A stretch of DNA of 26,491 bases from Candidatus Bathyarchaeota archaeon B23 (GTDB lineage Archaea > Thermoproteota > Bathyarchaeia > TCS64 > B23), in NCBI GenBank assembly GCA_001593875.1, contig LUCA01000001.1, forward strand, positions 1-26,491. Direction: 5' to 3'. Made by a program: the position numbers and the translations under genes. Within the stretch, counting starts at the first letter, position 1. Each line of letters opens with the position of its first letter. The notes under the pieces are model-generated. The model had not been told where the DNA came from. It saw nothing but the letters and a program-made list of their open reading frames with translations, and searched no databases. This document shows positions 2,404 through 3,289 of this stretch, piece after piece.

Positions 2404-2512
2404 AATCTCCGTTATTATCCGAAGATGTTGAGACGTTTTTAACATATGTGATACAAAACCCGGGTCTCCCCACCCTCTTCCACGGAAGTTGATGCCCCCC
2501 TCACGTAACACA

Positions 2513-2527
2513 ATCATAATATATGAT
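2513..2527 (+). promoter_or_regulatory. AT-rich near-palindrome ATCATAATATATGAT; candidate TATA box/operator for the structured element
   Basis: TATA-like core sits about 25-30 nt upstream of 2547, the first base of the long stem. Confidence 0.35.
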
Positions 2528-2546: not shown

Positions 2547-2687
2547 TGCCCAAGCAGGGGGGTACGCCAAGAATACGTGCATCGAGGCGATGAGCCCTCC
2601 GGTCGAAACGGCTGAAGACCGGTGGGCGACAAAGACGTCGCCCCGATGGGTCGGACATGTATTCAAGGCTTAGACCCTGCTTGGGCA
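2547..2687 (+). ncRNA. Candidate structured ncRNA (or MITE-like element): long rod capped by a four-way junction
   Basis: 13-bp perfect terminal inverted repeat (2547-2559/2675-2687); nested stems 2571-2579/2656-2664 and 2580-2584/2644-2648; three hairpins 2586-2596, 2599-2622, 2624-2643. Strand inferred from the upstream TATA-like box and downstream T-rich tract. Confidence 0.45.
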
Positions 2688-3289
2688 TTCTTCATTTTAG
2701 GCGATCTCGATCGGCGGTTGCCTCCCTCTCCCCTCGGAATCCATTCAAACTCCATCTCGATCTCCAGCCGCCCCTCATCCCATGCGTAGAGGAACTTGAC
2801 GTCGAGGGGCTCCGTGGGCTCCACCCTGATGGCCTCCAACTGGGGGAGGACCTCTGAGAGGTCGAAGCTCCCCCTCTCTAGGCCTCTCCCCAGCTCCTGG
2901 AGGAGATCTCCCAGCTCCCTCCTGGAGAGTTGTCCCCTGAAGCGTCGTATGGCCCTGTGGGCCTCGCCGTAGGCCTCGATGTGCTCGATCAGCCTACTCC
3001 ACCTCGTCATGGCCCTCCCGATGGCCTCCCGCCCCCTCTCCGTTATCCGGTAGTAGCGCCTATCGGGGGCCTCCTCCCTATGCTCAACCCTGCTTGAGAC
3101 CAGCCCCGCCCTCCTCAGCCTCTCCAGGGCTGGATAGATCGTCCCCGCCTTGGGCTCCCAATATCCCCCAAACATCTCCCTAAGCCTCTGTATGATCTGG
3201 TAGCCGTAGTTGGGGCCCTCGGATAGGATCAGCAGCAACCAGAATTGTACGGGGCTTATCTCCCTCCCCCTAGGTATGAGGCCGTGCAT
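2663..3289 (-). CDS. PadR-family transcriptional regulator with C-terminal extension
   Basis: LLILSEGPNYGYQIIQRL..GTIYPALERLRRAGLV..RRYYRITERGR winged-helix signature. Confidence 0.9.
   Translation of the reverse strand: MHGLIPRGREISPVQFWLLLILSEGPNYGYQIIQRLREMFGGYWEPKAGTIYPALERLRRAGLVSSRVEHREEAPDRRYYRITERGREAIGRAMTRWSRLIEHIEAYGEAHRAIRRFRGQLSRRELGDLLQELGRGLERGSFDLSEVLPQLEAIRVEPTEPLDVKFLYAWDEGRLEIEMEFEWIPRGEGGNRRSRSPKMKNAQAGSKP

What the first reader, a model, noticed from the sequence alone, without database searches (positions are those of the whole stretch)
2547..2687. Unannotated 141-nt structured element: long rod capped by a tRNA-like cloverleaf, with an apparent promoter
Nearly every base can pair. 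There is a perfect 13-bp closing stem (TGCCCAAGCAGGG/CCCTGCTTGGGCA), GCC/GGC, a 9-bp stem with one G-U (2571-2579/2656-2664), then a four-way junction: CATCG/CGATG closing three hairpins (GGC-GATGA-GCC; CCGGTC-12 nt-GACCGG; GGGCGAC-AAAGAC-GTCGCCC) separated by 0-2 nt linkers. A TATA-like box lies about 27 nt upstream and a T-rich tract follows. The loops carry GAUGA and CUGA, the box C and box D words bound by L7Ae. It sits between convergent genes, so a cis riboswitch is unlikely. I do not recognise it as 5S, SRP, RNase P, tRNA or a known riboswitch. It could be a new archaeal ncRNA class or a MITE-like element.
Basis: partly seen in the sequence, partly recalled or inferred. Interest (0 to 1): 0.72.

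Follow-up and report, generated by a model that had tools for sequence, protein, structure and literature searches.

The report
New pseudoknotted archaeal RNA gene family
The 141-nt element is a real, separately transcribed structured RNA gene of Bathyarchaeia, not tRNA-like, and it belongs to a previously uncatalogued RNA family that in most lineages sits back-to-back with the gene of an uncharacterised nuclease-like protein.

Summary
The element at 2547-2687 (+) is real. It folds far better than shuffles (z -7.5). It has a conserved TATA promoter about 27 nt upstream, sharp conservation boundaries and a conserved T-tract, and is single-copy. The organism is a Bathyarchaeia MAG from a hydrothermal vent.

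It supports a nested rod in which the 12-nt apical loop pairs with a 3' bulge, a pseudoknot that is 98% paired with 3 of 4 pairs covarying. The box C/D words are not conserved. It is not a MITE, tRNA, SRP RNA or RNase P RNA, and no variant matches any Rfam 15 family.

The family spans at least 12 Bathyarchaeia families and three lineages of other classes. Its universal core is a terminal "clamp": P1, an internal loop (5' RAGYAN, 3' UUAGA) and P2. The interior ranges from a plain rod to one to three pseudoknot modules.

In 21 of 21 other genomes hit in a phylum sample, the RNA gene lies divergently, 80-325 nt from a conserved ~212-aa PD-(D/E)xK-fold protein gene. In this genus the two are unlinked.

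Best reading is an RNP partner or regulator of that protein; this is inferred, not shown. The scan noted the same RNA earlier in a sister genome.

The parts
2507..2524 (+). Archaeal promoter block (BRE/TATA-like AACACAATCATAATATAT); TATA centre about 27 nt before the RNA 5' end
   Evidence: Identical in five species of the genus while neighbouring bases vary. A TATA is kept at the same distance in another genus and in other families.
2547..2559 (+). P1 5' strand (closing stem, part of the universal 'clamp')
   Evidence: Pairs with 2675-2687. 11 of 12 pairs show double changes. All 9 inner pairs are kept in 12 of 17 sequences drawn from 12 families.
2560..2565 (+). Clamp internal loop, 5' side (GGGUAC here; family consensus RAGYAN)
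   Evidence: Near-invariant G..G.A across 17 sequences of 12 families.
2566..2568 (+). P2 5' strand (GCC; family GCY)
   Evidence: Pairs with 2667-2669; 98.5% paired; invariant GC.
2571..2579 (+). P3 5' strand
   Evidence: Pairs with 2656-2664; 8 of 9 pairs covary.
2580..2592 (+). P4 5' strand (13 positions with a conserved A.C mismatch at 2585/2643)
   Evidence: Pairs with 2636-2648; helices 4 and 5 are 97% and 95% paired, and 11 of 12 pairs covary.
2593..2593 (+). Single bulged A (5' side of the turn loop; conserved G-A-G context)
   Evidence: Invariant in alignment A7.
2594..2604 (+). P5 (GCCC) + 1x1 mismatch + P6 (CCGGUC), 5' strands
   Evidence: Pair with 2617-2627; 11 of 11 pairs covary.
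2605..2616 (+). 12-nt apical loop GAAACGGCUGAA; its CGGC (2609-2612) is the 5' strand of the pseudoknot
   Evidence: Loop consensus is NAAAC-RGC-KRAA. The pseudoknot helix is 98% paired and 3 of 4 pairs have double changes.
2617..2627 (+). P6 and P5 3' strands
2628..2635 (+). 8-nt A-rich bulge GACAAAGA (family G-N-Y-AAAGA); inferred site of the ~180 degree fold-back that lets the loop reach the base of P4
   Evidence: Conserved in all type-1 members. The fold-back itself is inferred from the geometry the pseudoknot requires.
2636..2648 (+). P4 3' strand
2649..2655 (+). 3' 'bulge' GGUCGGA; GUCG (2650-2653) is the 3' strand of the pseudoknot
   Evidence: Observed pairings are CGGC/GUCG, CGGC/GCCG, CAGC/GCUG, CAAC/GUUG and GCGGC/GCCGC in different lineages.
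2656..2664 (+). P3 3' strand
2667..2674 (+). P2 3' strand GGC + clamp loop 3' side UUAGA (the most conserved word of the family, GGCUUAGA)
   Evidence: Invariant GGCUUAG in 17 sequences from 12 families.
2675..2687 (+). P1 3' strand
2688..2698 (+). T-rich tract TTCTTCATTTT, probable archaeal terminator / U-rich 3' tail
   Evidence: Conserved in the genus and in a second genus; T-rich in the other families.

Best explanation
SHOWN:
- 2547-2687 (+) is a stand-alone gene for a ~141-nt structured non-coding RNA with its own TATA promoter and T-tract terminator.
- It is the one-module form of an uncatalogued RNA family of Bathyarchaeia and a few related lineages.
- The fold is not a cloverleaf. It is a terminal 'clamp' (13-bp P1, a purine-rich internal loop with 5' RAGYAN and 3' UUAGA, and P2) carrying a long hairpin.
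- The apical loop of that hairpin (CGGC) base-pairs with the strand just 3' of the hairpin (GUCG).

INFERRED FROM GEOMETRY:
- The pseudoknot needs the hairpin to fold back on itself. The fold-back is placed at the conserved A-rich 8-nt bulge.

INFERRED MECHANISM:
- The clamp is the only part shared by all variants, so it is taken as the recognition platform for a protein.
- The variable body (plain rod, or one to three pseudoknot modules) is taken as a rigid scaffold.
- The most likely partner is a conserved ~212-aa PD-(D/E)xK-fold protein. Its gene lies divergently next to the RNA gene in most lineages, but not in this genus.
- The RNA would act in trans as a subunit, regulator or decoy of that nuclease-like protein.
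For: Real RNA gene:
- z -7.5 against shuffles.
- Conservation starts exactly at the first base of P1 and ends after the T-tract, and the promoter block is conserved.
- The + strand scores 170 bits against 37 bits for the - strand, and many G-U pairs occur.

Structure:
- 94% of cells are paired, 45 of 51 pairs show double changes, and 0 of 500 shuffles reach this. Slid controls give 29-41% paired.
- The pseudoknot is 98% paired. It is kept with unrelated sequence (GCCCAG/CUGGGU) in a two-module member (L088).

Family:
- 24 of 151 Bathyarchaeia genomes are hit by model R1.
- Further variants occur in f6, f11, f12, f18 and f19, and in non-Bathyarchaeia f36, f57 and f65.
- The clamp is invariant, with P1 covariation, across 12 families.

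Protein link:
- All 21 non-own genomes hit by R3 in a phylum sample have the RNA 80-325 nt from, and divergent to, the protein gene.
- 24 of the 30 best protein loci carry the RNA alongside.
- Genes on the outer sides differ between families: DNA ligase, CDC48 and others.
- 22 of 24 RNA-positive genomes have the protein; the other two are 68% and 85% complete.
- The protein is 62-83% identical across families. It has no Pfam or NCBIfam family, and its fold is PD-(D/E)xK.
Against: - No transcript evidence: no RNA run could be listed.
- In this genome's own genus, in g10, f29 and part of f11 and f17, the RNA and protein genes are on different contigs or far apart.
- The protein was not found in this 68%-complete assembly.
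- The protein occurs without a detectable RNA in most of family f2 (28 of 28 genomes have the protein, 1 has the RNA) and in other classes such as f32 and f45. So the protein does not need the RNA.
- Adjacency could be inherited synteny of two back-to-back promoters.
- No physical interaction was tested.
Confidence: 0.5

Rival explanations
1. A protein-independent functional RNA: a trans-acting ligand- or metal-binding aptamer (sponge or sensor), or an unrecognised ribozyme. The pseudoknot module would form the pocket and tandem modules would act like tandem aptamers.
For: - Many invariant unpaired nucleotides cluster around the pseudoknot and the A-rich bulge.
- One to three similar modules lie inside one closing stem.
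- In family f15 the RNA lies 44-85 nt upstream of a CDC48 gene in the same orientation.
Against: - There is no expression platform and no consistent downstream gene. In the window the next gene is convergent.
- The modules are absent from several lineages whose RNA is a plain rod (f6, f57). The only universal part is the clamp.
- No known riboswitch or ribozyme class matches, even at E up to 10.
Confidence: 0.2
2. An L7Ae-type RNP or box C/D-like sRNA: GAUGA and CUGA, or the clamp loop, would form a kink-turn bound by L7Ae.
For: - The 3' side of the clamp reads GGC-UUA-GA-CCC. From my own knowledge of k-turns, this is the pattern of a k-turn bulged strand (C-helix, 3-nt loop, G-A).
- GA dinucleotides flank P5.
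Against: - GAUGA and CUGA are not conserved.
- The opposite strand of the clamp loop has four extra bases between its GA and the helix, which does not fit a standard k-turn.
- There are no guide regions and no Rfam C/D family match.
Confidence: 0.08
3. A cis element of the neighbouring genes: a bidirectional terminator between convergent genes, or an antisense or 3'-UTR element of the PadR-family gene whose last 25 nt overlap it.
For: - It lies between convergent genes.
- The 208-aa PadR-family ORF (2663-3289, -) ends inside P1.
Against: - Neighbouring genes differ between species and families while the RNA, its promoter and its orientation are kept.
- The structure is strand-specific and far more elaborate than a terminator.
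Confidence: 0.04
4. A DNA-level feature: a MITE or other mobile palindrome, or a protein-binding inverted repeat.
For: - Both strands fold about equally well as single sequences.
- One genome (G152) carries four loci.
Against: - There is one copy in this genome and in nearly all others.
- Compensatory changes pass through G-U, which works on one strand only. The pseudoknot exists on the + strand only.
- No hits were found in viral contigs.
Confidence: 0.02

Closest known systems
Bacterial Y RNAs (e.g. YrlA) and their partner Ro/Rsr
   Same: From my own knowledge, not tested here: a stand-alone small RNA whose paired 5' and 3' ends carry the conserved protein-binding site. The distal part is variable or modular. 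The gene is typically encoded next to the partner protein's gene.
   Different: No sequence or covariance-model similarity: no Rfam hit. The neighbour here is a PD-(D/E)xK-fold protein, not a TROVE/Ro protein. The distal domain is a fold-back pseudoknot, not tRNA-like.
Sarcin-ricin / loop-E (bulged-G, S-turn) motif; loop L1 of the yybP-ykoY Mn2+ riboswitch
   Same: The clamp loop reads AGUA (or AGCA) on one strand and GA-C on the other, next to a G-rich helix. As I recall, this resembles AGUA/GAC of the sarcin-ricin loop and GGAGUA/AAGAC of yybP-ykoY L1.
   Different: This is a local resemblance from memory only. RF00080 and all other families give no match. The overall architecture (no four-way junction, no cis-regulated gene) is different.
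Archaeal box C/D sRNAs / L7Ae k-turn RNPs
   Same: Small archaeal RNA with paired termini and GA-containing internal loops.
   Different: Box C and box D words are not conserved. There are no guide segments. The RNA is about 140-240 nt and almost fully base-paired.
Large or medium bacterial ncRNAs of unknown function with linked protein genes (e.g. OLE RNA with OapA)
   Same: Complex, covariation-supported structure. Lineage-restricted distribution, with conserved linkage to the gene of an uncharacterised protein.
   Different: Archaeal; unrelated sequence and structure; modular copy number of an internal pseudoknot domain.
Type III toxin-antitoxin RNAs (ToxI-like)
   Same: Tandem pseudoknotted RNA modules encoded beside a nuclease gene.
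   Different: The pair here is divergent rather than co-transcribed. It is single-copy and vertically conserved across classes. The protein is often present without the RNA.

Membership tests
tRNA / tRNA-like cloverleaf | Detected by tRNA models; four conserved arms around a four-way junction | tested here: not met
   ARAGORN and Rfam tRNA find only the two real tRNAs elsewhere in the window. The two arms specific to the cloverleaf are 67% and 72% paired, against 95% and 92% for the nested alternative.
Box C/D sRNA | Conserved box C (RUGAUGA) and box D (CUGA) forming a k-turn, with guide regions | tested here: not met
   GAUGA and CUGA vary freely among homologues. No C/D family comes near threshold.
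L7Ae-binding k-turn RNA | C-helix, 3-nt bulge and tandem sheared G.A pairs; binding by L7Ae | tested here: inconclusive
   The 3' strand GGC-UUA-GA fits, but the 5' strand does not fit a standard k-turn. Binding cannot be tested with these tools.
Archaeal SRP RNA (RF01857) | Match to the SRP covariance model; one per genome | tested here: not met
   The element gives no hit. Bona fide SRP RNAs lie elsewhere in four related genomes.
Archaeal RNase P RNA (RF00373) | Match to the RNase P model | tested here: not met
   No hit at the element. RNase P RNA is found elsewhere in RNA-positive genomes G095, G152, G087 and G029.
Any Rfam 15 family, including riboswitches and ribozymes (e.g. yybP-ykoY, fluoride, hammerhead, twister) | Covariance-model score at or near the gathering threshold | tested here: not met
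   The best scores are 11-14 bits at E above 1 for unrelated families. The same holds for 29 homologous loci of all structural types.
Cis-acting riboswitch | Located in the 5' UTR of a conserved class of regulated genes, with an expression platform | tested here: not met
   The element has its own promoter and T-tract. The downstream gene is convergent here and differs between lineages.
MITE / mobile palindrome | Many dispersed copies, terminal inverted repeats with target-site duplications, no strand bias | tested here: not met
   Single copy. Strong strand asymmetry and a + strand-only pseudoknot.
RNP with the neighbouring PD-(D/E)xK-fold protein (proposed, not a known family) | Physical binding of the RNA clamp to the protein | not testable with these tools
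   Only genomic linkage and co-occurrence are available.

The most novel reading that the evidence does not exclude
The RNA and the conserved ~212-aa PD-(D/E)xK-fold protein form a previously unknown archaeal ribonucleoprotein. The invariant terminal clamp (P1 + RAGYAN/UUAGA loop + P2) docks the nuclease-like protein. The fold-back pseudoknot modules then regulate, target or sequester its activity.
Probability: 0.35. Interest if true: 0.85.

Novelty: categorically new. Interest (0 to 1): 0.7.

Why it matters
Bathyarchaeia are among the most abundant uncultured archaea in sediments, and almost nothing is known of their non-coding RNAs. This is a covariation-supported RNA class rich in tertiary structure. 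It has a modular pseudoknot domain and an invariant terminal motif, and no Rfam 15 family matches it. Its tight gene linkage to a highly conserved, unannotated nuclease-fold protein gives a testable hypothesis for both molecules. Archaeal structured RNAs beyond the universal ones are rare, so a new class with a likely protein partner would interest RNA and archaeal biologists.

Tried and rejected
- **Rfam.** Searched at gathering and at E up to 10 on the window and on 29 homologous loci; nothing relevant.
- **tRNA scan.** Negative.
- **SRP RNA or RNase P RNA identity.** Both are found elsewhere in RNA-positive genomes.
- **Hammerhead reading of CUGAAGA / GAAAC / GUC.** Rejected by eye because the order of the elements around the junction is wrong and U4 is not conserved.
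- **Fluoride and yybP-ykoY riboswitch word similarities.** Only local, with no model hit.
- **H/ACA.** No ACA box and no pseudouridylation pocket.
- **Bulge-helix-bulge processing site.** The geometry is absent.
- **MITE.** Single copy.
- **Viral origin.** 18 pattern matches in IMG/VR were all chance; none scored with the model.
- **Conserved small ORF.** A 26-codon ORF runs from an AUG within GAUGA (2590) to the UAG of UUAGA (2671-2673). By eye, that AUG is missing in other lineages.
- **Clamp pattern in family f2 genomes.** Gave only chance matches in coding DNA. R1 and R2 also find nothing there except G029.
- **Expression data.** No RNA run could be listed.
- **Literature.** Three searches and two preprints read; no description of this RNA or of the protein was found.
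- **Naming the protein.** Pfam, NCBIfam, PDB sequence search, homologue names and the ESM Atlas all return 'hypothetical'.

Full report
**1. The observation**

- As RNA, the + strand folds to -79.2 kcal/mol, against -49 +/- 4 for dinucleotide shuffles (z -7.5). The - strand is similar (z -7.5).
It is a fully nested rod.
- Rfam (gathering, and E up to 10 on 2400-2800) and ARAGORN give nothing at this place.
- The element is single-copy in its assembly, which is 718 kb in 75 contigs and 68% complete.
- Record titles of near-identical loci identify the organism as Bathyarchaeia. The only DNA runs holding the window are hydrothermal-vent metagenomes.

**2. It is an independent RNA gene on the + strand**

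Four other species of the genus (92-94% identity) and one species of another genus and family (83%) carry it once each. The alignment with flanks shows three things.
- A conserved promoter block lies at 2507-2524, with the TATA centre about 27 nt upstream of the RNA. It is followed by about 20 poorly conserved bases.
- Conservation then starts exactly at the first base of the closing stem.
- Conservation ends after the T-tract TTCTTCATTTT (2688-2698).

More distant members have the same layout: an A/T-rich TATA element 22-30 nt upstream and a T-rich tail. Covariance model R1 scores the + strand at 170 bits and the - strand at 37 bits. Many compensatory paths run through G-U. This is therefore RNA-level, strand-specific structure, not a DNA palindrome. 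No RNA-seq run could be listed, so transcription itself is inferred.

**3. Structure**

Model R1 was built on six sequences. With it I found 24 of 151 sampled Bathyarchaeia genomes positive, in nine families, plus metagenome and MAG loci. Counts on 26 aligned members (A7) are as follows.
- The nested rod plus one pseudoknot gives 94% of cells paired.
- 45 of 51 pairs have changes on both sides.
- 0 of 500 shuffles reach any observed measure.
- Sliding the 3' partners by 1-3 columns drops pairing to 29-41%.

The pseudoknot joins CGGC of the 12-nt apical loop (2609-2612) to GUCG (2650-2653), directly 3' of the long hairpin. It is 98% paired, with CGGC/GCCG, CAGC/GCUG, CAAC/GUUG and GCGGC/GCCGC in different lineages. 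A two-module relative keeps it with unrelated sequence (GCCCAG/CUGGGU).

The loop sits at the tip of about 24 bp and its partner at the base. So the hairpin must fold back on itself. The only candidate hinge is the conserved asymmetric loop (one A opposite G-N-Y-AAAGA, 2593 and 2628-2635). P4 (13 bp) and P5+P6 (11 bp) match in length. This fold-back is inferred from geometry, not shown.

Its two private arms are only 67% and 72% paired. GAUGA and CUGA, the supposed box C and D, are not conserved.

**4. The wider family**

Some genomes carry two or three such pseudoknot modules in tandem inside one closing stem (L021, L033, G120, G090, G115, G158, G110). Other lineages have a different interior.
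- Families f11 and f36 have a hairpin with the conserved loop GGAGAUAACAUCAAA.
- Families f6 and f57 have a plain rod.

All members share a terminal 'clamp'.
- P1 has 9 or more pairs, covarying, often with AAG/CUU in the middle.
- The internal loop reads 5' RAGYAN and 3' UUAGA.
- P2 is GCY/GGC. GGCUUAG is invariant in 17 sequences from 12 families.

Model R3, built on the clamp, found the family in a 151-genome sample of the phylum only in Bathyarchaeia and in lineages f36 (11 of 13) and f57. Nothing was found in 19 genomes of f32 or in the other large families. A further hit lies in f65. Within the window's own order it is limited to this genus (4 of 5 other species, plus this genome) and one other genus. 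No variant matches any Rfam 15 family. SRP RNA and RNase P RNA are present separately.

**5. The linked protein**

In most lineages a ~212-aa ORF lies upstream of the RNA gene and is transcribed divergently.
- These ORFs are orthologues, 62-83% identical across families, with invariant D...E-x-E and K residues.
- They have no Pfam or NCBIfam family, no PDB sequence relative and no informative name.
- The AlphaFold model (pLDDT 88) has an N-terminal helical hairpin and a PD-(D/E)xK nuclease core. The nearest folds are XisH, AF1548, SPO1766, the NucS nuclease domain and Mrr-like proteins.

The linkage evidence is as follows.
- All 21 non-own genomes hit by R3 in the phylum sample have the RNA gene 80-325 nt from the protein start, in divergent orientation (coordinates).
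- 24 of the 30 best protein loci have the RNA alongside.
- Genes on the outer sides differ: a convergent DNA ligase in f13, CDC48 in f15, others elsewhere. Only the pair is preserved.
- 22 of 24 RNA-positive Bathyarchaeia genomes have the protein. The two exceptions are 68% and 85% complete.

Against a strict dependence:
- The protein is much more widespread, in 74 of 151 class genomes and 126 of 301 phylum genomes. It occurs without a detectable RNA in f2, f32, f45 and others.
- In this genome's genus the two genes are unlinked.
- The protein was not found in this incomplete assembly.

**6. Mechanism**

- Shown: an independent, conserved, pseudoknotted RNA gene with an invariant terminal clamp.
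- Inferred: the clamp is a protein-recognition platform, the body is a rigid scaffold whose modules vary by lineage, and the most likely partner is the PD-(D/E)xK-fold protein. I put about 0.35-0.4 on that partnership and about 0.9 on the RNA being a genuine functional structured RNA.
- Rivals: a protein-independent aptamer or ribozyme (0.2), an L7Ae-type RNP (0.08), a cis element of neighbouring genes (0.04), and a DNA palindrome or MITE (0.02).

**7. Comparison and novelty**

The nearest functional analogy is the bacterial Y RNA with Ro: conserved paired termini as the binding site, a variable distal domain, and a gene next to the partner's gene. There is no sequence or model similarity to it. 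The clamp loop resembles a sarcin-ricin or loop-E S-turn and loop L1 of yybP-ykoY, but only as a local motif recalled from memory. I found no description in Rfam 15 or in the searchable literature.

Its coordinates equal my locus G002:C1:25849-25989.

I rate the family as categorically new. The caveats are that its function is unproven and that transcription has not been observed.

Noticed in passing
L045:1716-2369 (+) and orthologues (alignment A6); not found in this window or assembly: A ~212-aa protein, 62-83% identical across Bathyarchaeia families. It is present in 126 of 301 sampled genomes of the phylum, always single-copy. It has no Pfam or NCBIfam family and a PD-(D/E)xK nuclease fold with an N-terminal helical hairpin.
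   Followed up: partly
window 2663-3289 (-): A 208-aa PadR-family ORF ends inside the RNA's closing stem, with a 25-nt overlap with 2663-2687. In a sister species the convergent ORF stops 24 nt beyond the RNA instead.
   Followed up: no
L128 (G152:C1:727500-742800): One complete genome has four loci of the RNA. Two near-identical copies in inverted orientation, with different P1 sequences, bracket a ~10-kb dTDP-rhamnose / UDP-GlcNAc-epimerase / glycan gene cluster.
   Followed up: partly
L021:545-775, L033:2880-3108 (-), L088, L059: Relatives carry two or three tandem pseudoknot modules within a single clamp. The modules differ in sequence but keep the loop-bulge pairing.
   Followed up: partly
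window 2560-2565: This genome's clamp loop reads GGGUAC where the sister species have GAGCAC. These are two adjacent changes in an otherwise near-invariant motif, and GGGUAA recurs in f12 and f19.
   Followed up: no
window 2590-2673 (+): A 26-codon ORF runs from an AUG within GAUGA to the UAG of the invariant UUAGA. The AUG is missing in other lineages, so it is probably not coding.
   Followed up: partly
family f2 of the same order (e.g. G010, G015, G026): 28 of 28 sampled genomes keep the PD-(D/E)xK protein, but only one (G029) has the RNA. That copy is 83% identical to this genus's copy, which suggests loss in f2 or transfer between the two genera.
   Followed up: partly
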